64,000 nt of DNA from Alphaproteobacteria bacterium (GCA_964291285.2 OZ219785.1:576001-640000); one strand, 5' to 3'. Counted from the first letter of the stretch, positions 13,798-47,033 are shown. Notes: generated by a model from the sequence alone, not told the origin. Numbers and translations: made by a program.

Positions 13798-15162
13798 TTG
13801 CCCGCCGCCATCGATTACGACGCCCTTCTTGCCCCCGGCCTGCCGCCGCCGGCCCCGCGCTGGAACGGCTTTGCGCCCTATAATTTCATCGGCGGCAATG
13901 TCGATGCGGCGAGCATGCCGGTCGAGGACATGATTGCCGCGACCGCCTCGGCGCTCCGCCGGGAGGGGGCGACGCTGGCGACCTACGGGATGGAGAGCGG
14001 GCCGCTCGGCTACCGGCCGCTCCGGGAATTCGTTGCCGCCAAGCTCCGCAAACGCAGCGGCCTCTCGGTCTCGCCCGACAATGTGCTCATCACCTCGGGC
14101 TCGAACCAGGGGCTGGACCTCGTCAACGAGATATTCCTCCGTCCCGGCGATACGGTCCTGGTCGAGCAGTTCAGCTACGGCAGCGCGCTCGCCCGCCTGC
14201 GCAAGCTCGGCGTCAGGCCGGTGGGCATTCCGCTGGACGATGGCGGCATGCGCATGGACCGGCTTGCCGAAAAACTGGCCGCGCTTGCCTCCGAGGGCGT
14301 AAAGCCGAAATTCATCTATGTCATCCCGACGATCCAGAATCCCGGCGGCAGCATCATGCCGGAAGCCAGGCGGGCCGAGCTGCTGCGCCTTTCGGCGGAA
14401 TACGGCGTGCCCGTCTTCGAGGACGAGTGCTACGCGGACCTTCTGTGGACGGGCGAGCGCCCGCCCGCCATCGCGGCAATGGACGAAGGCAACCGGGTGA
14501 TCCATTGCGGATCGTTCTCGAAGACGATCGCGCCGGCGCTGCGTGTCGGATACATCCACGCCGAGCCCGCCCTCATCGCCCGTATGGTCGCTTGCAAGAC
14601 CGACGGCGGCACCGGCGCGCTCGAACAGCTGATGCTGGCGGAATACTGCCGGACCCGCTTCGATGCCCATGTCGATCGTGTAATACCACCGGCCACAGAT
14701 AAGAACCGATTAGCCTCTCTCGGCGGAGATTACCTCTTGCAGTAGGAGGCCTCGGCTCAGGGGGCGAGCTGCGGAGGGAGGATCTGCTATCGGTTCCAAT
14801 CAACGACCGTTGGTATAACGGGGCTGCTCAAGGAGAAGCTCGACGCCATGACCGGGGCGCTGGAGGAGCATTTCGGCACGGCCGCGGAGTTCGTGCCGCC
14901 GGAAGGCGGCATCTTCCTGTGGATTTCCCTGCCCGACGCCGTGGACGCGATGAAGCTCGCCGCCGCCTCGGCGGCTGCCGGCATCGCCATCAATCCCGGC
15001 CCGGAATGGTCCGCCGAGGCCGAGCCCGCCCGGTCGCGCATCCGGCTCTGTTTCGGCAACCCGACCGTGGAGGAAATCCGCGGCGGCGTGGGGAAGCTCG
15101 CCGAGATCTGCCACCGCGAGTTCGGGATTCCGCTCCGGAGCGGCAATATCGAGCGCGCCTGA
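13798..15162 (+). pseudogene. PLP-dependent class I (MocR/LysN-like) aminotransferase interrupted in frame by a MITE that carries one TAG
   Basis: YVIPTIQNPGG, FEDECY and SFSKTIAPALRVG; the C-terminal PEGGIFLW...IRLCF part lies in the same frame after the insert; TTG start with AGGAG RBS. Confidence 0.85.
14684..14815. mobile_element. 132-bp MITE with TACC...GGTA ends and a TAA target duplication
   Basis: Imperfect terminal IRs taccaccggccacagataagaaccgat / atcggttccaatcaacgaccgttggta; TAA at 14681-14683 and 14816-14818; removing it restores VDRVTGLLKEKLDAM. Confidence 0.85.
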
Positions 15163-28178: not shown

Positions 28179-28397
28179 ATGCCTTCGTCGAACGCCGAGC
28201 GTGTCCGCAAGCGGAGGGAGGCCCTCCGGGCGCAGGGGCTCCGTCCCGTCCAGCTCTGGGTCCCCGACAGCCGGCGGCCGGGCTTCGAAGAGGAATGCCG
28301 CCGGCAGGCGGCGCTGGCGGCGGCGGCGGACCGGAACGACCCTGAACTTATGGCCTTCTTGGACGCCGCTCTGGAAGACCTGGACGATCCGGAGTGA
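28179..28397 (+). CDS. MazE-like antitoxin (DUF3018 type)
   Basis: RV.K.R..LRAQGLRPVQLWVPD.R.PGF.EECRRQ; lies directly upstream of the toxin. Confidence 0.85.
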   Translation: MPSSNAERVRKRREALRAQGLRPVQLWVPDSRRPGFEEECRRQAALAAAADRNDPELMAFLDAALEDLDDPE

Positions 28398-28720
28398 CGC
28401 GCGGCGACCTTGTAACCGTTGTCGCGCCGGGAGAATTCGGCAAGCCGCGCCCCGCCCTCGTGGTGCAGTCGGACCGGTTCCGGGAAACGGCGACCGTAAC
28501 GGTTCTACCGGTGACATCGACCGAGGCGGAAACGCCGTTGTTCCGGGTTGCAGTCGAACCGTCTCCGGCCAATGGTCTGCGAACGCGATCCTTCGTCATG
28601 GCCGACAAGGCCACAACGGTACGGATCGGCAAATTGGGTCAACCGTTCGGCCGCCTTGAGGAGGACGCCATGCGCGCCGTGAACCGCGCGCTCGCGCTGT
28701 TCCTCGGCATCGTTACCTGA
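28394..28720 (+). CDS. PemK/MazF family toxin
   Basis: RGD.V.V..PG.FGKPRPALVVQ, NGL...S.VM.DK; GTGA overlap with the antitoxin. Confidence 0.9.
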   Translation: MTRGDLVTVVAPGEFGKPRPALVVQSDRFRETATVTVLPVTSTEAETPLFRVAVEPSPANGLRTRSFVMADKATTVRIGKLGQPFGRLEEDAMRAVNRALALFLGIVT

Positions 28721-34442: not shown

Positions 34443-35290
34443 GCAGCGACAGACCGGCCCGTCTCGGCGGCGGCCTTTCGACGCTGATCCCGGACATTCC
34501 GGTTCCGGAGCGGGACCCGGCGTCCGGCGTCCGCATGGTTGCGAAGGACCAGCTGGAGCCCGGGCGCTTCCAGCCCCGGCGGCGCTTCGGCGAGGAGGCG
34601 CTCAACGCGCTGGCGGTGTCGATCCGCGAGCACGGCATCCTCCAGCCGATCCTGGCGCGGCCCATGGCGGACATGCCCGGCCGTTACGAGATCGTTGCCG
34701 GCGAGCGGCGCTGGCTGGCCGCGAGGCGGGCCGGGCTCGCGGAAGTCCCGGTGACGGTGCGCGAGTTGGACGACCGGACCGCGATGGAGGCCGCGCTCGC
34801 AGAGAACGTCCAACGCAGGAACCTCTCGCCGATCGAGGAGGCCGAAGGCTACCAGCGCCTGCTGGAGGAGTTCGGCTGCACCCAGGAGCGGCTTTCGACC
34901 GTGGTGGGGCGCAGCCGGGCGCATATCGCCAACACGCTCCGGCTGCTTATGCTGCCGGACCCCGTGCGCTATCTGGTCGATGACGGGACGCTGTCCGCCG
35001 GCCATGCCCGCGCCCTGCTCGCGGCCCCGGATCCGGCCTCGCTGGCGGACCGGGTGATCGCCCAGGGCATGAGCGTGCGCAGCGTCGAGCGCCTGGTCAG
35101 GGAGCAGCACGGCGCCCGCCGGAAAGCGGCGGCCGGGAAGGACGAGGACGCGCTGGCGCTCGAACTGGAACTGGGCGAACGGCTCGGCCTCACGGTGTCG
35201 CTGGCGCAACGGGGCGGGGGCGGCAGCCTCACCCTGCATTACCGCAGCCTGGAGCAGCTCGACGACCTGCTGGAGCGCCTGCGAAGCTAG
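34439..35290 (+). CDS. parB: Chromosome partitioning protein ParB
   Basis: QPRR.F, GILQPI, IVAGERRW.AA, ENVQR.NL.PIEEA, GRSRAHIANTLRLL. Confidence 0.95.
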   Translation: MSSDRPARLGGGLSTLIPDIPVPERDPASGVRMVAKDQLEPGRFQPRRRFGEEALNALAVSIREHGILQPILARPMADMPGRYEIVAGERRWLAARRAGLAEVPVTVRELDDRTAMEAALAENVQRRNLSPIEEAEGYQRLLEEFGCTQERLSTVVGRSRAHIANTLRLLMLPDPVRYLVDDGTLSAGHARALLAAPDPASLADRVIAQGMSVRSVERLVREQHGARRKAAAGKDEDALALELELGERLGLTVSLAQRGGGGSLTLHYRSLEQLDDLLERLRS

Positions 35291-35843
35291 CCATCTGGAA
35301 CTGAAGTAGGGTTTCACTTTATATATTCTCTGGACGGCGTTCGGATTGCAGCCGCATCGGGAACAGGCGTTCAAGCTCTCCGGCGGCCCGTTGTTCGTGG
35401 ACAAGGTCCGCGGCATCGTCGGGCTCTACCTCTCGCCGCCGGACCGCGCGCTGGTGCTTTGTGTCGATGAGAAGAGCCGGATCCAGGCGCTCGACCGCAC
35501 GCAGCCTGTCCTGCCGATGCTGCCGGGCACACCCGAGCGACGCACACACGACTACAAGTGCCATGGCACCACCTCGCTGTTTGCCGCCCTCGATGTCGCC
35601 ACCGGCTTCGTCATCGGCAAATGCTACCGGCGCCACCGGGCCAGGGAGTTCCTCGACTTCCTGAAGCGAATCGACCGCCGCGTTCCCGCACGCCTCGACG
35701 TCCACATCGTCATGGACAACTACGCAACCCACAAGACCGCGGCGGTCAGGGCCTGGCTGGCGCGAGGCCCCACTGGCATGTCCACTTCACGCCGACCTCC
35801 GCCTCCTGGATCAATCGGGTCGAGCGATGGTTCGCCGAACTGA
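35291..35843 (+). mobile_element. IS630-family remnant (internal transposase fragment, frameshifted and truncated)
   Basis: FKLS.....DKV..IVGLY..PP..ALVLCVDEK..IQALDR, HIVMDNYATHK, then HFTPTSASWIN.VERWF in another frame. Confidence 0.85.
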
Positions 35844-35966
35844 TGCCGGCGGTCTCCATGTGGGACTCATGTGTTCTTCCGTCATGCCCGGAACAAGTCC
35901 GGGCATGACGGAAGAGGGCAACCGGGCGCCGGTTCCGTCATGGATTTCAGTCAATGACCGTTGGTA
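35844..35966. mobile_element. MITE copy (123 bp) containing an internal GTCATGCCCGG hairpin
   Basis: Ends tgccggcggtc / gaccgttggta; hairpin at 35876-35914; 63 of 67 positions identical to 39526-39592 (inverted) outside a 56-bp insert. Confidence 0.8.
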
Positions 35967-36010
35967 TCAGTTCGCACTTTTGAGGTCATGCATGGTACGG
36001 TTCGGATGTG

Positions 36011-37330
36011 TCAGGTCCTCATCAGGCTTGGCAGCCAGGCAATGATCCCGGGGAAGATCATGCAAAGAGTGAGACCCAGTATCATGAGAAGGACAAACGG
36101 TGTCGTCGATTTGTAGATATCCATCATGGTCACGCCTGGTGGCACAACCGCCTTCATGTAGAACAGATTGAATCCGAAAGGTGGCGTCAGAAAGGCCAAC
36201 TCCATGTTAATCACGAACAGTATCGCAAACCAAAGTGGATCGAAGCCCAGAGAGGTAACGATCGGGAAAAAGAGGGGGGCGGTCAGCAAAACGATGCCCG
36301 CCGGATCGAAGAACATTCCCAACACGAGCAGGATGATCTGCATGGTAATGATCACCATCCATGGATCACCGATACCCGTGATCAAGTCACCTACGAGCGT
36401 AGAGGCACCGGTTACGGCGTAGAGCGCTGTGAACGCCGAGGCGGCGAATACAATCCAGATTACCATCGCGCTCAATCGCAGCGTGATGAATAGCGCCGAG
36501 GTGAAGTTTTCCCAGTTGAACGACCGCTTGATCACCGCACTGACAATCGCGCCGAGGGCGCCGATTGCCGAAGCTTCGCTGGGCGTAGCGAAGCCAAAGA
36601 ACATGGACCCCATCACCGCAAAAACCAGGCTGACGGGAAGCAACAACGCCCGCAGTAGTTTCAAACGCTCAGCCGCCGGAAGTCGATCATCCGGCGGCAC
36701 GCTCGGTCCCATGTCCTTCTGGATGTAACAGCGGATCAGGATATACCCGACAAACAATGAGCTGAGCAGCAACCCGGGAACAATGCCGGCAATGAACATC
36801 TGGCCGACCGACTGTCTCGAGGTCAGAGCGAGGATGATCATCAGCACGCTCGGTGGAATGAGGATTCCAAGTGAACCGCCTGCCGATATGCAACCGAGCG
36901 CTATGTCTTTCTTGTAGCCGCGCCTGAGCATTGAGGGCAGTGCAATCAGGCCCATCGACGTAGTGGCGGCACCGCTGATGCCGACCATCGCTGCAAACAG
37001 CGTGCAGATGAGTACTGTCCCGGCCGCAAGCCCACCGCGGAGCCCGCCCATCCAGTGGTACATCAATTCGTACATTTCTTCGGCGATGCCACATCGCTGC
37101 AGCAAGGCACCCATGAATATGAACATGGGCACGGCCACGAGCAGGAACAGGTCCATGGCCATGTATGTTCGATTTGCGAGGATCGGCAACGCGTGCGGTC
37201 CCCACAAGAAGATGATGAAGAAAGTTGCGACGCCGCCAATCGCGAACACCAGCGGCAGCCCCGAAAGCAGAAGCACAACGAGACTGCCAAACAGGATAAC
37301 TGTTAGCCACTCCGGGCCAAGGCCAAACAT
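36011..37330 (-). CDS. dctM: TRAP transporter large permease
   Basis: LVAVPMFIFMG, GSLGILIPPS, LTPPFGFNLF. Confidence 0.93.
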   Translation of the reverse strand: MFGLGPEWLTVILFGSLVVLLLSGLPLVFAIGGVATFFIIFLWGPHALPILANRTYMAMDLFLLVAVPMFIFMGALLQRCGIAEEMYELMYHWMGGLRGGLAAGTVLICTLFAAMVGISGAATTSMGLIALPSMLRRGYKKDIALGCISAGGSLGILIPPSVLMIILALTSRQSVGQMFIAGIVPGLLLSSLFVGYILIRCYIQKDMGPSVPPDDRLPAAERLKLLRALLLPVSLVFAVMGSMFFGFATPSEASAIGALGAIVSAVIKRSFNWENFTSALFITLRLSAMVIWIVFAASAFTALYAVTGASTLVGDLITGIGDPWMVIITMQIILLVLGMFFDPAGIVLLTAPLFFPIVTSLGFDPLWFAILFVINMELAFLTPPFGFNLFYMKAVVPPGVTMMDIYKSTTPFVLLMILGLTLCMIFPGIIAWLPSLMRT

Positions 37331-37407
37331 GAGCTAACTCCTGCGGGGCTGTCGTCGAGACACAACGGTCGACACGTCAGTGGACATACGGAGCGAGACG
37401 GCGGGGG

Positions 37408-37941
37408 TCAGGGAACCTGCATGCGTACCGGAAAGATATCTTCGCCCTTGATGACGATCATCACGTCGCGGATCAGCTTGGCAAGAACCTGCATCAGGAA
37501 CAGCAAGCATCCCACCGGCAGCGTTGTGCGCAACGGATAATAGATGGGTTTCCAATGTGTCATCGTGGTCTCTCCAAGCCGCCAGGAATTGATGGTGATC
37601 TCCAGCGATACCCAAAACAGCACGCCCAGAAAGAGGAACGTGAAGCCGCTGGTGACGATATCGAGCATCGCACGCCCCCGAGGCGAGAGCTGACCCCAGA
37701 AGATGTCCACATTGACATGGCCGCCGGTCATGTGCGTGTAGGCCCCGCCAAGCACAATGTAGCCGCCGTACAGGAAAAGCGATATTTCATAAGCCCAAAG
37801 CGACGGCGCATTGAAGAAGTACCGCATCACGATTTCCCAGACCATGATGCAGAGCATCGGGACGATCGTGAACGCGACGACCCAGGCAAACCTCGCGTTA
37901 AGCCAGTCCGTAAAATGCAGATAGTACTGGATTGCTTTCAC
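37408..37941 (-). CDS. dctQ: TRAP transporter small permease
   Basis: 4 TM segments; RYFFNAP..WA.E and GGAYT...GGHVNVD. Confidence 0.9.
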   Translation of the reverse strand: MKAIQYYLHFTDWLNARFAWVVAFTIVPMLCIMVWEIVMRYFFNAPSLWAYEISLFLYGGYIVLGGAYTHMTGGHVNVDIFWGQLSPRGRAMLDIVTSGFTFLFLGVLFWVSLEITINSWRLGETTMTHWKPIYYPLRTTLPVGCLLFLMQVLAKLIRDVMIVIKGEDIFPVRMQVP

Positions 37942-38215
37942 CGTCCGTTCCTATCCAGACCGGTCGCGCCAGCGAGGCACTCGGGCCACTGGCAGCCATA
38001 GTGATACCGTCAGCGCGACTTACGCCTCTTTGGCAGCGCCCGAAGCGCGCTGCCATGAATTACCCCGGCCTCGGCCGGCCCCCGAGGTCGGTGCATGCAA
38101 GGATCAAGGATGCACCGACCTTGGGAGCCTCGGGTACGACGCGTCACGGCTGGCGCATCCTGCCCTGCCCGCCGCAAGTCGCGGGGCGTTTCACGCTGGA
38201 ACCGCCAGGCAGGCC
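37942..38215 (-). other. Highly structured dctP-dctQ intergenic region
   Basis: Stems gcgactt/aagtcgc, tggcagcgc/gcgctgcca and aggtcggtgcat/atgcaccgacct. Confidence 0.5.
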
Positions 38216-39379
38216 CTAGACAGGAAGCTGCTTCGGACCGTAGTAGTTCTTGTACAGTTCCCGAGCCGCGCTGTAGATGTCGATCATCTTGTCGATGTGG
38301 GGCATCGTACCCCGTTTGCTGATGAACTTGTCCCAGCACCAGTCGGCTGCTTCCCTCAATTCCTCGTCCGGCATGAGGATCGTTTCCACGCCGCCGTCCG
38401 CCAGTTCCTTGCGGCCGTTGGCATCCGTCGGGATGGTGAGGGCAGTGATATCGAGGTTATAGACGCGGGCAGCTGACAGTAACACTTCCTGCAAGTCCGC
38501 CGGCATCTCGTTGTAGGTCTTCAAGTTCATGATGATCTCGGTGATGTCGTACGGTGCCACCGAGGGATTGATGTAATACTTGCAGACCTCGTGCATCTTC
38601 ATACCGGCCCAGGCATCCGGCGCGCCGAACGCGGCGGCGTCGAGGATCTTGGTCTGGATGGCAGTGTAGATCTCACCGCCCGGTAACACGACGATGGACG
38701 CGCCGTTCTTGACGAGCCATTCGGCCCAGATGCCGAACGCGCGCACCTTCATGCCTTGGAAGTCGGCGTAGCTCTCGACCGGCCGCGTCGACATCATGGC
38801 GCCCCATTCGTCGGAGCAAGTGTAGGACAGGTGCATCACGTTGTGCGGCGCATAAGCCTCGCGCCAGAGCTCCTTGAGCCCCATGAACTGGTACATGGTC
38901 TCATAGAACTCAACGTTCGTGACCGGAAAAAACGGCACGGACCAGAGATACTCACCGACCGGCACGGTGCCGCGGTGGTAGATCGAGGCCGTGACGGCCA
39001 GGTCGGCCACGCCGGTGCCGACACCGTTGAAGGTTTCGCCGATGCCGAGCAGCACTTCGGCATCGAAGTTCGTCACCTCAATGCGGCCGCCGGACAATTT
39101 GTTGATGCGATCGACGAACCGACCCACGGCGCGGTCCTGCGACTCGATGCCGATACCCGTCCAGTTGCTCTGCAGCTTCAGTTTCCACGTCTTGTTCTCT
39201 GCCCTGGCGATCGCGGGCATGGCGAGCGCCGCCGCACCGGCGCCTGCGACGCCCATCGCCGTGGTCTTCAGATAGTCGCGCCGGCTCATTGCCTTCTTTG
39301 GGCCGACCGCTTCGCCAGTGGATGGCGTACTCCTGGCGTCCCCAGGCGCAGCCGGGAACTTGATCTGCTTGTCAGCCAT
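38216..39379 (-). CDS. dctP: TRAP substrate-binding protein with Tat signal (TakP-like)
   Basis: SRRDYLK twin-arginine motif, AMPAIARA, SGGRIEV, D.QGMKVR, LPGGEIY.A. Confidence 0.9.
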   Translation of the reverse strand: MADKQIKFPAAPGDARSTPSTGEAVGPKKAMSRRDYLKTTAMGVAGAGAAALAMPAIARAENKTWKLKLQSNWTGIGIESQDRAVGRFVDRINKLSGGRIEVTNFDAEVLLGIGETFNGVGTGVADLAVTASIYHRGTVPVGEYLWSVPFFPVTNVEFYETMYQFMGLKELWREAYAPHNVMHLSYTCSDEWGAMMSTRPVESYADFQGMKVRAFGIWAEWLVKNGASIVVLPGGEIYTAIQTKILDAAAFGAPDAWAGMKMHEVCKYYINPSVAPYDITEIIMNLKTYNEMPADLQEVLLSAARVYNLDITALTIPTDANGRKELADGGVETILMPDEELREAADWCWDKFISKRGTMPHIDKMIDIYSAARELYKNYYGPKQLPV

Positions 39380-39525
39380 TGCATTTCCTCCAAAAGTCTG
39401 GTTTTCCAAGCGCTTCTAGCGCCGCATTCCCAATGGTTTGCCGGTATCTGCCGGTTTGCCGTTGAGCACCGCCGTGATCGTGCATGATATTTTACAAGGG
39501 TGCAAGGCTCGTATGGCGGGTGTCG

Positions 39526-39592
39526 TACCAACGGTCATTGACTGAAACTCATGACGGAAGAAGACATGAGTCCCACATGGAGACCGCCGGTA
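39526..39592. mobile_element. MITE copy (67 bp), inverted relative to 35844-35966
   Basis: taccaacggtc...gaccgccggta followed by TAA. Confidence 0.8.
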
Positions 39593-39602
39593 TAACCAAT
39601 CG

Positions 39603-39642
39603 ATTGAACTTCCGGTACTACAATTGAACTTCCGGTACTACA
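39603..39642 (+). repeat. Exact 20-bp tandem duplication (attgaacttccggtactaca x2)
   Basis: Read directly from the sequence; overlaps the putative IS701 end. Confidence 0.9.
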
Positions 39643-39870
39643 GTTGTGTGTTTTGTCGATATTTATAGTGGGAGACGGCGACAGAGGCTTGATGCATTCG
39701 TCGCCGGAGGGACCACTGGATGATGTCGGGCGGCCTGTTCGGTGTCTTGAAGACGAGGCGGGCGAGCAGGGTTCGGATTTCGGGAACCGGGGGAACGAGA
39801 GCGGCGAGCAGCATCAAGCGGCGGTTGGCGTTGCGGGACCCGTTTCGTTCCGCTTGCCGGCTGCAGCGGC
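39635..39870 (-). mobile_element. IS701-family 3'-end remnant
   Basis: Minus strand reads VPEIRTLLARL...IIQWSLRRRMHQA....HY...QL* and ends in caactgtagtac, resembling IS701 transposase C-termini. Confidence 0.6.
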
Positions 39871-40251
39871 GGCCACGCGGTGGAAGGCGTCTCTCCCGTC
39901 GACTCCGCGAGCCGCCAGCGCCTTGCAGATGCGATTCGCGGCGATCAGGTTGCGTTCGGTGAGATGCTGGAGCGTCAGCCGGATGTCCTCGGGGTCTTCG
40001 GCGAAAGTCCGCGTCACTGCCGCCAGGAAATCCTCGACCTCGTCCGGATAGTTGAATTTCGGCTCAAGGCCGTAGGAATCGGCGTGAGGCATTTTCCCGC
40101 CCGGCGTCGCGATCGTCACGTCGACGCCGGCCGCCCCGAGAATCTTCAACGGCTTGTATAGTTCCTCCGCCCAGAAGCCCGTTTCGTGTGGCGTGCCGTC
40201 GGCCAGCGCAATCTCGTCGGCGGTCGAAACGATCATCAGAACCCGCGGCAT
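39814..40251 (-). pseudogene. DJ-1/PfpI (type 1 glutamine amidotransferase-like) protein, 3'-truncated
   Basis: RVLMIVS......LADG..H.TGFWAEEL..P......G.DVTIATPGG; the GGHG and catalytic Cys regions are missing. Confidence 0.75.
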
Positions 40252-40482
40252 TCCCTTCTTCTCGAAATTTCGGTCTCCGAAAAGCGTGCGCAAGCAAAAT
40301 CGAGAGTTGGCGACGAAACGGAGTTTATCGCGTCGATATCGGCAACTCTTGCCCAATTTTGTCTAAGACTTGCCCATTCCTGCAAGGCCGCTTCCGAATT
40401 CCGGCGCCCAGGCCGCCGCACGCTCACGAAAACCCGACCGAGGCCCGCCTGGCTTCGCTCGATGGCTGAACCGGACAGCGAT

Positions 40483-40561
40483 GGAACAAGTCCAGGCATG
40501 ACGGAAGCGCAGTCCGGCGCTCCGGGTCGGACCGACACGAACTTCAGAAGCAGGACACTAG
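40483..40561. repeat. Half copy of the GTCATG hairpin plus an IS630-like terminus
   Basis: ggaacaagtccaggcatgacggaag (40483-40507) matches 35890-35914; aacttcagaagcaggacacTAG resembles IS630 ends. Confidence 0.55.
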
Positions 40562-43133: not shown

Positions 43134-46100
43134 TCACTTCCGGGTCAGCGAAAACTCGATGCGCCGGTTGCGCCGGTAGGCTTCCCTTGTGTCCGCCGGA
43201 TCGAGCGGGTGGTATTCGCCGAACCCGGTGGCGGCCAGCCGCTCGGCGGGCACGCCGGCCTCCTGCAGCAGCCTGACCACCGCAACCGCCCGCGCGACCG
43301 ACAGTTCCCAATTGGTCTTGTAGGGGGACCGGTCGCGAAGCCGTTGCCGGTCGGTGTGGCCGTCCACGCGCAGCACCCAGTCGAGATCTTCCGGGATCCG
43401 GGCCGCCACATCGGTCAGGGCGCTGCCGATCCGGCGCACACGCTCCTTTCCCTGCCTGTCGAGATCGGCAGAACCGCTCAGGAACAGCACTTCGGCCGGC
43501 AGGTAGAAGCGGTCGTCCTCGGTCCGCACCAATTGCTGGCCCGCCAGCGCCTCGCGCAGCTTGCCGACAAATTCCGAGCGGAAGCGGCGCATCTCGTCGA
43601 TCTTGCGCACGAGCGCGCTGTTGAGCCGCGCGTCGAGAACCAGCGTCTCCGCTCCCTCGGCCTTCGCCTCCGAGGCTTCCAGCGCCGCGTTGAGCCGCTT
43701 CACCTGCTCCTTGAGCGCCCGGATATTGGCGGCCAGCCGGGCGACCTGGGCTTTCGCCAGCCGTGATTCGGCCTCGGCCTTCTCGGCCTGCGTCCTCAGA
43801 TACGCCAACCGGTCGACCTGTTCGGCCTTCTCCGCTTCGAGCTTCTCCCTCGCCGCCTCGAGCGCCCGGCGAAGCGCTTCCAGCCGCTCGATTTCCCCGA
43901 TCTGCTCGTCGATCCGCCGGCGCAGCGAAGCGATGCGGTCCTCGCTGTCCCGCTCGATGGCATCCAGGTCGGCCAGCTGGTCCCGGAGGCGGGTGTTTTC
44001 GACCGCGAGCTGCATCACGCGGGTTTCCGCCGCCTCGTAGAGGGCTCTGTCCACGGCATCCGCCGCGCCGGTCTCGCCGCGCACCGCAACGCCGCGCCGC
44101 AATTGCAGTTCCTCGCGGGCTTCGGCGAGGCGCTTGCGCGCGAGGTCGAGCTGCTGGCGGAGCCGCGCGGCGTTGGCGAGCGCTTCCTCCAGCCTGCCTT
44201 CCCCGACACGCTGGCCCGCGTCGCGTTCCGCGGTTGCTTCGGCAAGCGCTGTCTCCAGCCGGGCGGCTTCGGTGCGCTGCGCGTCCCGCTCGCGTTCCGC
44301 GGCCGCCAGCCGCTCCGCAAGCGACGCTGCGTTCGCTTCCGCCGCCGCGAGCGCTTCCCGGAGCTTCACGGCTTCGGCGGTTTGCGCGTCGCGCTCGGCC
44401 TCCGCGCTTTCGAGCAGCCGGGCGCGGGCGGCTGCCTCCGCCCTCGCTTCCGCGAGCGCCTGCTGCAGCGCGGCAAGCTGCCGGTTCGCCGTTTCCTCGA
44501 ACCGGGCCGTATCCGCTTCCAGCCGCCTGATTTCCTCCCGCCCGGCAGCCTGGCCGGCCTCGGCCTGCTTCAGGCTTTCGGCCAGGGCAACGGCCCTCGC
44601 CTCGGCGGCCGCAAGCGCTTCGGTCAGCGCATCGATCCGCTGCTGCCGGGCAAGGCGGGCGATCTCCGTATCGACGAGCCGGCCGGCAAGGGAGTCGATC
44701 TCCTCCTTCGCCGCCGCCAGCGCATGTTCCAGACCGGCGATAGCCGCGCGGGCGGTTTCCGCGTCCTCGGCAAGCGTCCGCTTCAGGCCCGCGATCTCCC
44801 GCTCGCCGGCTGTCAGCCCGGTTTCGGCTTCGGCGAGGCGCCCGGCAAGGCCCTCCGCCCTTGCCTCGGCCGCCGCAAGCTCCTGTTCCAACGCCGCGAT
44901 GCGCGATGCCGCCGTTTCGGACTCCGCCTCCAGCACCCGTTTGAGGCGGGCGATTTCATCCTCCCCGGCCGCTCGCCGGCTCTCCGTATCCCCCAATCGC
45001 GCGGAGAGCGACGCGGCGTCCGTCCTGGCTTCCGCCAGCGACCGCTCCAGCGACGCCGCCGTCTCGGTTTCCGCCGCCAGCGCCTGCCTCAGCCGCGCAA
45101 TCTCCTCCGCCCCTGCGGCCCTCCGGGTCTCGGTGTCGCCGAGCTGTGCGGAGAGGGACGCCGCTTCCGTCCTCGCTTCGGCCAGCGACCGTTCCAGCAC
45201 CGCCGCCGTTTCCGACGTCTCATCGAGCGCTTGCCTGAGCCTGGCGATGTCTTCCGCCGCAGCCGCCCGCCGGCTTTCCGTATCGGCGAGCCGGGCCGAA
45301 AGGGAGGCGGCGGTCTCCCGTTCCTCCTCCAGCGTCCGTTCCAGCGCCGCAATGTCCGTGCGCGCGGTCTCGGCCTCCGCAGTTCGCGCGGCTTCCAGCC
45401 GGGCGATTTCGTCCCGCGCCGCGAGACGCCGGTCCTCGGTTTCGGCGAGCGCCGCGCCAAGACGGTCGATTTCCTCCAGCGCCCCGGCCAGAGCCTGCTC
45501 CAGGGCCGCAATCCGGGCCCGCGCCTTCTCCGCTTCCCCGGCGCGCGCGGCCTCCAGCCGGGCGATTTCGTCCTGCCCTGCGAGCCGCCGGCCCTCGATA
45601 TCGGCAAGCCGCGCCGCCAGCCGCCCGATCTCCTGCTGCGCGCTTGCCAGCGCCTGTTCCAGAGCCGCGATCCGCGCCCCCGCCGCCCGGGCCTCTCCGG
45701 CGCGCGCCGTTTCCAGTTGCGCAATCTCTTCCCGCCTGGCGTTCAGGTCGGCTTCTGCTTCCGCCAATTGCCGGGAAAGGCGCCCGATTTCGTCCTGGGC
45801 CGCCGCCATCTCTGAGCGTGCGGCATCCGCCTCGGCAAGCCGGCCTGCCTCGGTCTCCTTCAGCCGTTCGGTGAGCCGGTCGATTTCCGCTTCCGCCGCC
45901 GCCAGCGCGCGCTCCAGCCCGGCGATGTCGGATTTCGCCGCATCGGCCTCTTCGGCGCGCGCCGCCTCGAGCCGCGCGATTTCCTCCCGGCCCGCGGCCT
46001 CTCCCGCCTCGGAGTCCGCCAGCCGGGCGGTGAGGCGGCCGATTTCGATTTCCGCCGCCGCCAGCGCCTTCTCCAGTGCGGCGATGTCGGCGGCCGCCGT

Positions 46101-47033
46101 CTCCGTCTTCTCCGCCAGCGCCGTCTTCAGCCGCGCCGCCTCGTCGTTCGCCTGGGCGAGCGCGCGGCGGGCCTCGCCCAGCGCGGCCTTGAGCCGCTCC
46201 GCCTCGGCGGCCTGCGCGTCGCCCTCGGTCCGGAGAGCGGCCAGCTCGTCCTCCAGCGCCGCGCGCGCCGCCAGCAGGCCGCGAACCATCCGGTTGAGCT
46301 CCGCCAGCTTCTCGGCCTGCGCGGCCGTCTCCTCCCGGCTCGCCAGCAGCGCGGCGTCGAGGCGCGCGACCTCGTCGGCGCGGCGGGCGGATTCCTGCTG
46401 CACCGCCTCGATCCGGGCCTTGAGGGCGTCGGCCTCCCGGTCGCGCGCGGCGAGCCGTTCGAGATTGGCGGCGAGCAGGCGCCGCGCCTCGGCAAGCGCC
46501 CTGTCGGCATCGCTTTTCTGCTGCCGGGATTCCGAGAGCGCCGCCTCCAGCGCGTCCCGGCTGCGCTGGAGCGCGATCAGGTTGCGCTCCAGGCGCTCGA
46601 TCTCGCTTTCCTGGATCTGCAGCCTGTCCCGGTCGGCGGCCGCGCTGTCCGTCAGCCGCGCGAAGTCCTCGCGCAGCAGCAGGACGGTGCCGGCGGCCTG
46701 CTCGGCTTCGGCCGTCATCGTCTCCAGCCGGCCGGCATAGTCGTCGCGCGCCTCGGTGACGATGCGCAGCTCGGCCGTCAGCGCCTCGAGGTCGTCGCGC
46801 AGGTCGGCATTGGTCGTCTGCTCGAGCGCCAGCATCTCGGCAAGCTCGGCAAGCTCGCGGTTCAACCGCGACAGCGCCTCGTCGCGCCCGGAGAGCGCCT
46901 CGTTCAGGAAGAACTGCGCCAGAACGAAGACCATGACCAGGAAGACGACGACCATCAGCAGGCTCGCCAGCGCGTCCACGAAGCCCGGCCAGGTGTTGAT
47001 GTCCCGTCTGCGTCTGCTCGTCCTGCCCGCCAT
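43134..47033 (-). CDS. MotB/OmpA-type peptidoglycan-binding membrane protein with a very long repetitive coiled coil (1299 aa)
   Basis: N-terminal WPGFVDAL..LL TM; C-terminal RVDGHTD...NWELS.ARA...GFGEY.P...NRRIE; about 1100 aa of heptads between them. Confidence 0.9.
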   Translation of the reverse strand: MAGRTSRRRRDINTWPGFVDALASLLMVVVFLVMVFVLAQFFLNEALSGRDEALSRLNRELAELAEMLALEQTTNADLRDDLEALTAELRIVTEARDDYAGRLETMTAEAEQAAGTVLLLREDFARLTDSAAADRDRLQIQESEIERLERNLIALQRSRDALEAALSESRQQKSDADRALAEARRLLAANLERLAARDREADALKARIEAVQQESARRADEVARLDAALLASREETAAQAEKLAELNRMVRGLLAARAALEDELAALRTEGDAQAAEAERLKAALGEARRALAQANDEAARLKTALAEKTETAAADIAALEKALAAAEIEIGRLTARLADSEAGEAAGREEIARLEAARAEEADAAKSDIAGLERALAAAEAEIDRLTERLKETEAGRLAEADAARSEMAAAQDEIGRLSRQLAEAEADLNARREEIAQLETARAGEARAAGARIAALEQALASAQQEIGRLAARLADIEGRRLAGQDEIARLEAARAGEAEKARARIAALEQALAGALEEIDRLGAALAETEDRRLAARDEIARLEAARTAEAETARTDIAALERTLEEERETAASLSARLADTESRRAAAAEDIARLRQALDETSETAAVLERSLAEARTEAASLSAQLGDTETRRAAGAEEIARLRQALAAETETAASLERSLAEARTDAASLSARLGDTESRRAAGEDEIARLKRVLEAESETAASRIAALEQELAAAEARAEGLAGRLAEAETGLTAGEREIAGLKRTLAEDAETARAAIAGLEHALAAAKEEIDSLAGRLVDTEIARLARQQRIDALTEALAAAEARAVALAESLKQAEAGQAAGREEIRRLEADTARFEETANRQLAALQQALAEARAEAAARARLLESAEAERDAQTAEAVKLREALAAAEANAASLAERLAAAERERDAQRTEAARLETALAEATAERDAGQRVGEGRLEEALANAARLRQQLDLARKRLAEAREELQLRRGVAVRGETGAADAVDRALYEAAETRVMQLAVENTRLRDQLADLDAIERDSEDRIASLRRRIDEQIGEIERLEALRRALEAAREKLEAEKAEQVDRLAYLRTQAEKAEAESRLAKAQVARLAANIRALKEQVKRLNAALEASEAKAEGAETLVLDARLNSALVRKIDEMRRFRSEFVGKLREALAGQQLVRTEDDRFYLPAEVLFLSGSADLDRQGKERVRRIGSALTDVAARIPEDLDWVLRVDGHTDRQRLRDRSPYKTNWELSVARAVAVVRLLQEAGVPAERLAATGFGEYHPLDPADTREAYRRNRRIEFSLTRK

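What the first reader, a model, noticed from the sequence alone, without database searches (positions are those of the whole stretch)
35844..39592. Complete TRAP transporter carried between inverted MITEs: a transposase-less composite transposon
Seen: 35844-35966 and 39526-39592 are inverted copies (63 of 67 identical). The longer one has 56 extra bp between ttccgtcatg direct repeats, containing a perfect REP-type hairpin. They tightly bracket an intact, lower-GC dctPQM with its upstream region, and the left copy cuts the IS630 transposase fragment. The outer flanks are TGA and TAA (TNA-like, not identical). Inference: a MITE/REP hybrid family that mobilises nutrient-uptake cassettes in trans.
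Basis: partly seen in the sequence, partly recalled or inferred. Interest (0 to 1): 0.75.

Follow-up and report, generated by a model that had tools for sequence, protein, structure and literature searches.

The report
Two mini-transposons beside imported transporter genes
Two real miniature transposons sit at either edge of a nutrient-transporter operon that was likely acquired from another bacterium, but the right-hand one lies inside the operon's own upstream DNA, so they likely landed there separately and did not carry the operon as one jumping unit.

Summary
In detail: inverted 123-bp and 67-bp copies (63/67 identical) flank an intact, low-GC dctPQM. They belong to a genus-wide family of IS630-ended MITEs carrying CGTC-type REP hairpins. 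The likely transposase donor is a 1,167-bp IS630 with 10 full copies in this genome; the family duplicates TNA targets. The 67-bp copy is likely a deletion derivative.

The composite-transposon reading fails its own test. Two orthologous operons match the window up to the right MITE and carry on, in register, for 23 bp on its far side (18/23 and 14/23), so that MITE is an insertion into the operon's upstream DNA. The outer flanks differ (TGA/TAA), whereas 37 of 41 other family elements keep a TNA duplication. The IS630 gene cut on the left does not resume on the right. No close orthologue of the operon has these ends.

Best reading: a horizontally acquired TRAP operon survives in insertion-sequence debris at the parB-mlaC junction, with two sister MITEs added at its non-coding edges. 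A one-sided role for the left MITE is not excluded. This scan has noted REP-carrying IS630 MITEs on other DNA before.

The parts
35287..35313 (+). Left end of a second, CTAG-type IS630 element, overlapping the parB stop; left edge of the 5.27-kb insertion
   Evidence: 85% over 27 nt to the end of a full IS630 copy at C4; parB and mlaC adjoin in relatives
35328..35843 (+). IS630 transposase gene fragment (5' part deleted, frameshifted, cut at the left MITE)
   Evidence: 84.6% to the full copy; DDE_3 and NF033545 hits
35844..35966 (+). Left MITE, 123 bp, IS630-type 27-bp ends around a CGTC-type REP hairpin; second base of the outer end is G instead of A; flanks TGA/TCA inside an 8-bp perfect inverted flank
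35875..35915 (.). Perfect 18-bp REP-type hairpin; collapsed form of the two-REP core of about 190-200-bp family members
36011..37330 (-). dctM, TRAP large membrane subunit (439 aa)
   Evidence: PF06808 E 1e-81
37408..37941 (-). dctQ, TRAP small membrane subunit (177 aa)
   Evidence: PF04290 E 2e-27
38216..39409 (-). dctP, TRAP solute-binding protein with a TAT-like signal (start possibly 39379); predicted lactate/2-oxoacid type
   Evidence: PF03480; best solved relative 2zzv, E 5e-35, and the next hits are named lactate-binding TTHA0766
39498..39507 (.). 10-bp block conserved upstream of dctP in six orthologous loci; promoter role inferred, not picked up by the sigma-70 scan
39526..39592 (+). 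Right MITE, 67 bp, internal-deletion form with intact ends; inserted into the operon's native upstream DNA with 3 extra bases (TCG/TAA)
39593..39615 (+). Native upstream DNA of the operon lying outside the right MITE
   Evidence: 18/23 and 14/23 in register with L212 and L214
39635..39873 (-). Right-end remnant of an IS701 element; a 20-bp tandem duplication (39603-39642) spans its junction with the native DNA
   Evidence: 89% to L161, whose ORF is IS701; duplication read from the sequence
39973..40356 (-). Truncated DJ-1/PfpI-like gene (weak assignment)
   Evidence: HchA E 1e-3 and ThiJ_like E 6e-3, both below cut-off
40411..40561 (+). REP-mosaic repeat piece ending in an IS630-like end at CTAG on the mlaC stop; right edge of the insertion

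Best explanation
The two repeats are sister copies of an IS630-ended, REP-carrying MITE that were likely inserted separately, likely by the genome's 1,167-bp IS630 transposase acting in trans, into the non-coding edges of a TRAP operon that was likely acquired horizontally and now sits in insertion-sequence debris at the parB-mlaC junction. Shown: family membership, TNA duplications in other copies, an empty parB-mlaC site in relatives, a patchy operon distribution, and native DNA continuing past the right MITE. Inferred: the second copy arose by a short-range hop and then lost 56 bp between 10-bp repeats; the tight bracketing reflects selection to keep the three genes and promoter while IS630 and IS701 events trimmed the flanks; the left junction formed at a 5-bp match (GAACT) shared by the IS630 gene and the operon's native 3' flank.
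For: Right side: with the MITE and 3 bases set aside, the window lines up without gaps with L212 and L214, 24/25 inside and 18/23 and 14/23 outside (binomial p 5e-7 and 7e-4). Left side: the native flank in L091 and L214 runs up to the MITE (19/24 and 17/24 inside) and matches 4 and 6 of the last 7 bases outside. 37 of 41 other single elements keep a TNA duplication; neither MITE nor the pair does. The IS630 gene does not resume on the right. MITE ends share 15-19 of 27 bases with the IS630 ends, as much as the IS's two ends share with each other (16/27). An independent 68-bp deletion twin with a TAA duplication exists in G005. The operon is present over most of its length in 2 of 16 other genus genomes and is 96% identical in G016, whose core DNA is 83% identical. 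The orthologues examined have different flanks.
Against: The right MITE's flanks (TCG/TAA) differ at 2 of 3 positions from a clean duplication, and the left's (TGA/TCA) at 1, so three substitutions must be assumed. Two sister copies of a subfamily found nowhere else lie 3.56 kb apart (about 0.1% if placed uniformly), so a local hop is needed and was not shown for this element. The 8-bp inverted flank of the left MITE (5/5 arm match in 0 of 52 family targets and 0.17% of background TNA sites) is not explained. The control for the 23-bp match found one unrelated 19/23 hit among 1,258,558 positions.
Confidence: 0.65

Rival explanations
1. One-sided mobilisation: the left MITE first inserted in the operon's 3' flank, then its outer end, paired with a family end further right that has since been lost, moved the operon (with the right MITE as a passenger) into the IS630 gene at TGA.
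For: The IS630 homology stops exactly at a TNA next to the left MITE, the inner flank is native operon DNA, and TGA differs from TCA as expected if the outer flank is a new target. The IS701 remnant right of the operon could have removed the partner end.
Against: No partner end scores above threshold between 39593 and 46000. The 4-6 bases outside the left MITE also match the native flank, which this model must treat as coincidence.
Confidence: 0.2
2. One reading: the two MITEs are the ends of a transposase-less composite transposon that inserted as one unit into the IS630 gene.
For: Sister copies in inverted orientation, tight bracketing, homology to G016 ending within 7 and 18 bp of the inner ends, a cognate transposase in the genome. 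IMU-bounded composites also lacked flanking repeats yet were mobilised (PMC13367494, passages).
Against: Native upstream DNA continues past the right MITE. No outer duplication. The target gene does not resume. No family ends near any close orthologue. No joint of the outer ends in 8 runs of contigs.
Confidence: 0.06
3. Pure chance: two unrelated insertions of an abundant family.
For: At family level, 3 pairs within 4.5 kb among 46 elements is ordinary (expected 1.5, P of 3 or more = 0.19), and TNA sites are twice as dense in the operon region.
Against: The two copies are each other's closest relatives and no third full copy of the subfamily was found.
Confidence: 0.07

Closest known systems
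IS630-derived bacterial MITEs, e.g. RUP of Streptococcus pneumoniae with IS630-Spn1 (PMC2229807, passages)
   Same: Gene-less element with ends like a co-resident IS630; RUP is also reported to hit and inactivate other IS genes, as the left copy does here.
   Different: The duplication here is 3 bp TNA beside ends that begin with TA, not a TA dinucleotide; the interior is a CGTC-type REP hairpin.
MITE-bounded composite elements: TIME-COMPs and IMU (PMC13367494, passages; PMC4133298, abstract and outline)
   Same: Two inverted MITE copies around 1-10 kb of cargo, with the transposase supplied in trans.
   Different: Those are Tn3-derived, and past movement is inferred from repeats flanking the outermost ends or from several insertion sites. 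Here there is no such repeat, only one site, and donor DNA continues outside one MITE.
CGTC-tagged REPs of Alphaproteobacteria (PMC3733652, passages)
   Same: CGTC tag, 8-9-bp stem, 4-5-nt loop, head-to-head dimers; one family was reported inside a fixed 41-bp palindrome.
   Different: [quoted passage not shown]
DctPQM TRAP transporters of the lactate/2-oxoacid-binding group (2zzv; 7ug8 ketoacid-binding protein)
   Same: Three-gene layout and best structural-database hits.
   Different: Substrate untested; the matches are distant.

Membership tests
IS630-derived MITE | Short, non-coding, terminal inverted repeats | tested here: met
   67 and 123 bp with imperfect 27-bp ends
IS630-derived MITE | Ends shared with a co-resident IS630 element | tested here: met
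   15-19 of 27 bases shared with the 1,167-bp element; NF033545 hits for both its frames
IS630-derived MITE | Target duplication shared with that element | tested here: met
   Family level: TNA in 37 of 41 other elements and in members from relatives; degraded at these two copies
IS630-derived MITE | Canonical TA dinucleotide target | tested here: not met
   All duplications seen are TNA; the cut position cannot be fixed from sequence alone
IS630-derived MITE | Mobilisation in trans by the transposase | not testable with these tools
   Inferred from end similarity only; a second related IS630 in the genome could also serve
MITE-bounded composite transposon | Two copies of one MITE around cargo | tested here: met
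MITE-bounded composite transposon | Direct repeat flanking the outermost ends | tested here: not met
   TGA versus TAA
MITE-bounded composite transposon | Cargo homology stops at the MITEs and the target resumes beyond them | tested here: not met
   Operon DNA continues 23 bp past the right MITE; IS630 gene does not resume
MITE-bounded composite transposon | Same unit at more than one site or in other genomes | tested here: not met
   One copy in this genome; no family end near close orthologues; subfamily pattern not found in the genome collection
MITE-bounded composite transposon | Excision or circular junction | tested here: inconclusive
   None in 8 runs, but these are contigs, which drop rare variants
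CGTC REP | CGTC tag plus 8-9-bp stem and 4-5-nt loop | tested here: met
   35880-35910, both strands
TRAP transporter | dctP, dctQ and dctM together | tested here: met

The most novel reading that the evidence does not exclude
The REP-carrying, TNA-targeting IS630 MITE family can move host DNA: the left copy helped bring the TRAP operon to this site, and the pair is now a latent composite that the intact 1,167-bp IS630 could still mobilise, giving sponge-associated Alphaproteobacteria a gene-less vehicle for nutrient-uptake operons and for CGTC REPs.
Probability: 0.15. Interest if true: 0.5.

Novelty: new member of a known kind. Interest (0 to 1): 0.2.

Why it matters
As read here it is ordinary: a likely imported transporter operon with MITEs at its edges in an IS-rich genome. 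It is a useful caution that inverted MITEs around a gene do not by themselves make a composite transposon. Two side points have modest value: an IS630 lineage that duplicates TNA rather than TA, and a transposase-driven vehicle for some CGTC REPs, which were described as lacking a dedicated transposase (PMC3733652, passages). If the pair could be mobilised, it would extend MITE-bounded composites from Tn3-type to IS630-type ends and from resistance genes to nutrient uptake.

Tried and rejected
1. Looking for the parent element at C2:1297854 and C2:780538: both are MITEs with an unrelated IS inserted (best hits IS1182-like and IS1380-like, both below cut-off).
2. Homology to G016 ending 7 and 18 bp from the inner ends first looked like support for the composite. 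Closer-flanked orthologues L212 and L214 showed that this is G016's own divergence.
3. Inversion between the two MITEs: predicts inner flanks TTA and TCA and reversed IS630 sequence beside the right copy. The 18 bp there are native operon DNA instead. Rejected.
4. Capture of a circle by the inner ends (TCA/TCG as a duplication): rejected because both flanks of the right MITE are contiguous native DNA.
5. The 5.27-kb insertion as one transposed IS630 shell: both edges are CTAG with IS630-like ends, but the right end belongs to a separate REP-mosaic repeat. Left open.
6. Palindromic target preference to explain the left MITE's inverted flank: not seen (mean 1.6 of 5 arm matches in 52 targets).
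7. Viral contigs: 38 pattern matches, none with paired ends.
8. Contigs of 8 runs: no joint of the outer ends; joints at 35910 have sides under 30 nt and fall in the REP. Listed operon contigs in X5, X6, X10 and X11 stop at 36005 and 39388 with no listed piece on a MITE, but the tables were cut, so this is not counted as evidence.
10. Paper searches gave no description of a TNA-duplicating IS630 or of an IS630-MITE composite with a transporter. The library lacks most subscription journals, ISfinder could not be searched and no supplements were read, so absence from print is not shown.

Full report
Observation. They differ at 4 of 67 shared positions, and the longer one has 56 more bases between TTCCGTCATG repeats, including a perfect 18-bp hairpin. 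Between them lie open dctM, dctQ and dctP genes with GC 55-61% against about 68% for the genome. The best solved relative of DctP is 2zzv, followed by proteins named lactate-binding TTHA0766, so a monocarboxylate substrate is a prediction only.

The repeat family. All 30 genomic matches to the 10-mer ACCAACGGTC are preceded by T, which led to a family of 27-bp ends. A matrix scan gave 99 hits above 20 bits against 1 in the reversed-genome control. The family includes 29 copies of a 129-132-bp MITE (one at window 14684-14815) and a 1,167-bp insertion sequence with 10 full-length copies at 98.5-100% identity, whose two frames hit the IS630 model. Of 45 rows examined for flanks, 41 are other single elements and 37 of these have an exact TNA duplication; the four rows set apart are the two MITEs, the pair, and one 10-kb span that is probably not one element. 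The two MITEs share 15-19 of 27 end bases with this IS, whose own ends share 16. It is the likely source of transposase; a second related IS630 is also present. In relatives the same ends enclose elements of 68 to about 820 bp with TNA duplications, most of those printed in full showing REP-type hairpins, and an end pattern is found in 12 of 16 other genus genomes. The left copy aligns end to end with a 193-bp member from which the loop between two REP halves is missing. The right copy has the same layout as a 68-bp element in G005 with its own TAA duplication. Both are therefore likely deletion derivatives.

Is the pairing chance? At family level yes: 3 pairs within 4.5 kb among 46 elements, 1.5 expected. 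At subfamily level no: the two are each other's closest relatives, no third full copy was found in this genome or in 36 other genomes of the family (best 82% over 61 bp), and a subfamily pattern had no match in the genome collection. A short-range hop is the simplest account and is inferred.

The site. parB and mlaC lie within 263 bp of each other in 10 of 14 genus loci examined, 4 of them with overlapping stops; the other 4 have other DNA there, and a 15th locus was left out because its contig ends. So all of 35290-40557 is inserted, not just the MITE-bounded part. It also holds an IS630 fragment of a second, CTAG-ended type, an IS701 right end, a truncated DJ-1/PfpI-like gene (weak) and a REP-mosaic piece.

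The cargo. The operon is present over most of its length in 2 of 16 other genus genomes and was not found in the three closest by core DNA that were searched (G006, G007, G014; 90-91%). G016 is 83% identical at gidA-parB but 96% over the operon, which points to horizontal transfer. Orthologues sit beside tRNA-Ser in G016, beside a relaxase-like remnant in G001 (label from my reading of the ORF), between two repeated IS-like elements in L090, L092 and L093, and among host genes in L091. None of 14 loci has a family end. Of 79 loci (some redundant), 5 had a hit above 13 bits, all in distant relatives (73-74% DctP identity), and only one had a pair, on one side of the operon.

The decisive test. 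L212 and L214 (about 90% identical operons from records titled Thalassobaculaceae) match the window up to 39522-39523. Setting aside the right MITE and three bases, the alignment continues without gaps on its far side: 18 of 23 for L212 and 14 of 23 for L214 (binomial p 5e-7 and 7e-4). Among 1,258,558 control positions only 6 reached 16 of 23; one is this in-register site and one is an unrelated 19. The match ends where the IS701 end begins. The right MITE is therefore an insertion into the operon's upstream DNA, 18 bp from a conserved 10-bp block, and its outer end is still attached to donor sequence. In agreement, the outer flanks are TGA and TAA, and the IS630 gene cut on the left does not resume on the right.

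The left side is less clear. Native 3' flank runs up to the MITE in L091 and L214 (19/24, 17/24) and matches 4 and 6 of the last 7 bases outside it, but those bases also belong to the IS630 gene. Either the IS630 fragment was fused to the operon's flank at this short match, or the left MITE's outer end made the join. An 8-bp perfect inverted flank around the left MITE is unusual (0 of 52 family targets; 0.17% background) and unexplained; fold-back copying is a guess.

Mechanism. Most likely the operon arrived on a larger piece of foreign DNA at an insertion-prone junction. IS630 and IS701 events trimmed its flanks while selection kept the genes and promoter. A REP-carrying MITE landed at one edge and a sister copy at the other, then both decayed. 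Family, target, empty site, patchy distribution and the read-through on the right are shown. Order of events, local hop, trans-acting enzyme and selection are inferred.

Known systems. The elements are new members of the IS630-derived MITE class (RUP-like; PMC2229807, passages). They differ in a TNA duplication and a CGTC REP core; CGTC REPs were described as apparently lacking a dedicated transposase (PMC3733652, passages), but only 3 of 22 REP loci here lie inside these ends. MITE-bounded composites are known from Tn3-derived TIMEs and IMU (PMC13367494, passages; PMC4133298, abstract and outline); this locus fails three of their defining tests. PMC11602168 (passages) added nothing. Earlier notes of this scan describe the 132-bp MITE of this genome and REP-carrying IS630 MITEs in other genomes; I had reached both points beforehand and did not use the notes as evidence.

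Verdict. Real features, ordinary explanation. Interest 0.2; new member of a known kind.

Noticed in passing
window 14684-14815: An intact copy of the 132-bp IS630-ended MITE with a TAA duplication.
   Followed up: partly
G000 C3:88415-89581 (and 9 more full copies): 1,167-bp IS630 in two frames with an A-run at the overlap (likely frameshift site); it duplicates TNA and its ends begin with TA, unlike the TA target given for IS630-Spn1/RUP.
   Followed up: partly
L036-L050, parB-mlaC junction: The convergent stops are an insertion hotspot across the genus: a different palindromic element in L037 and L038, other inserts in L039, L040 and L045, and what look like a transporter gene end (L046) and an autotransporter-type gene end (L047); these last labels are from my reading, not tested.
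   Followed up: partly
window 35836-35974: The left MITE sits in a perfect 8-bp inverted flank, not seen at any of 52 other family targets; unexplained.
   Followed up: partly
L001:2778-4854: Nested elements: a 132-bp MITE carries a 1.9-kb IS1182-like element with a 9-bp duplication and no obvious inverted ends, and itself sits just upstream of another transposase-like gene.
   Followed up: no
L002:1516-3539: A REP-carrying family MITE with an intact TCA duplication holds an IS1380-like element inserted in its REP region.
   Followed up: no
G000 C3:378330-379496, 462833-463999, 1417415-1418581: Two IS630 copies without duplications share flanks with other copies, suggesting recombination between copies.
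   Followed up: no
window 28394-28720: PemK/MazF-like toxin-antitoxin toxin gene near the moaB-like gene; partner not looked for.
   Followed up: no
window 43134-47033: 1,299-aa coiled-coil-rich protein ending in what looks like an OmpA/MotB-type domain (label recalled, not tested).
   Followed up: no
runs X4-X20: The stretch is held mainly by sponge, coral and marine metagenomes; operon contigs in X5, X6, X10 and X11 differ at 76-91 of about 3,380 positions.
   Followed up: partly
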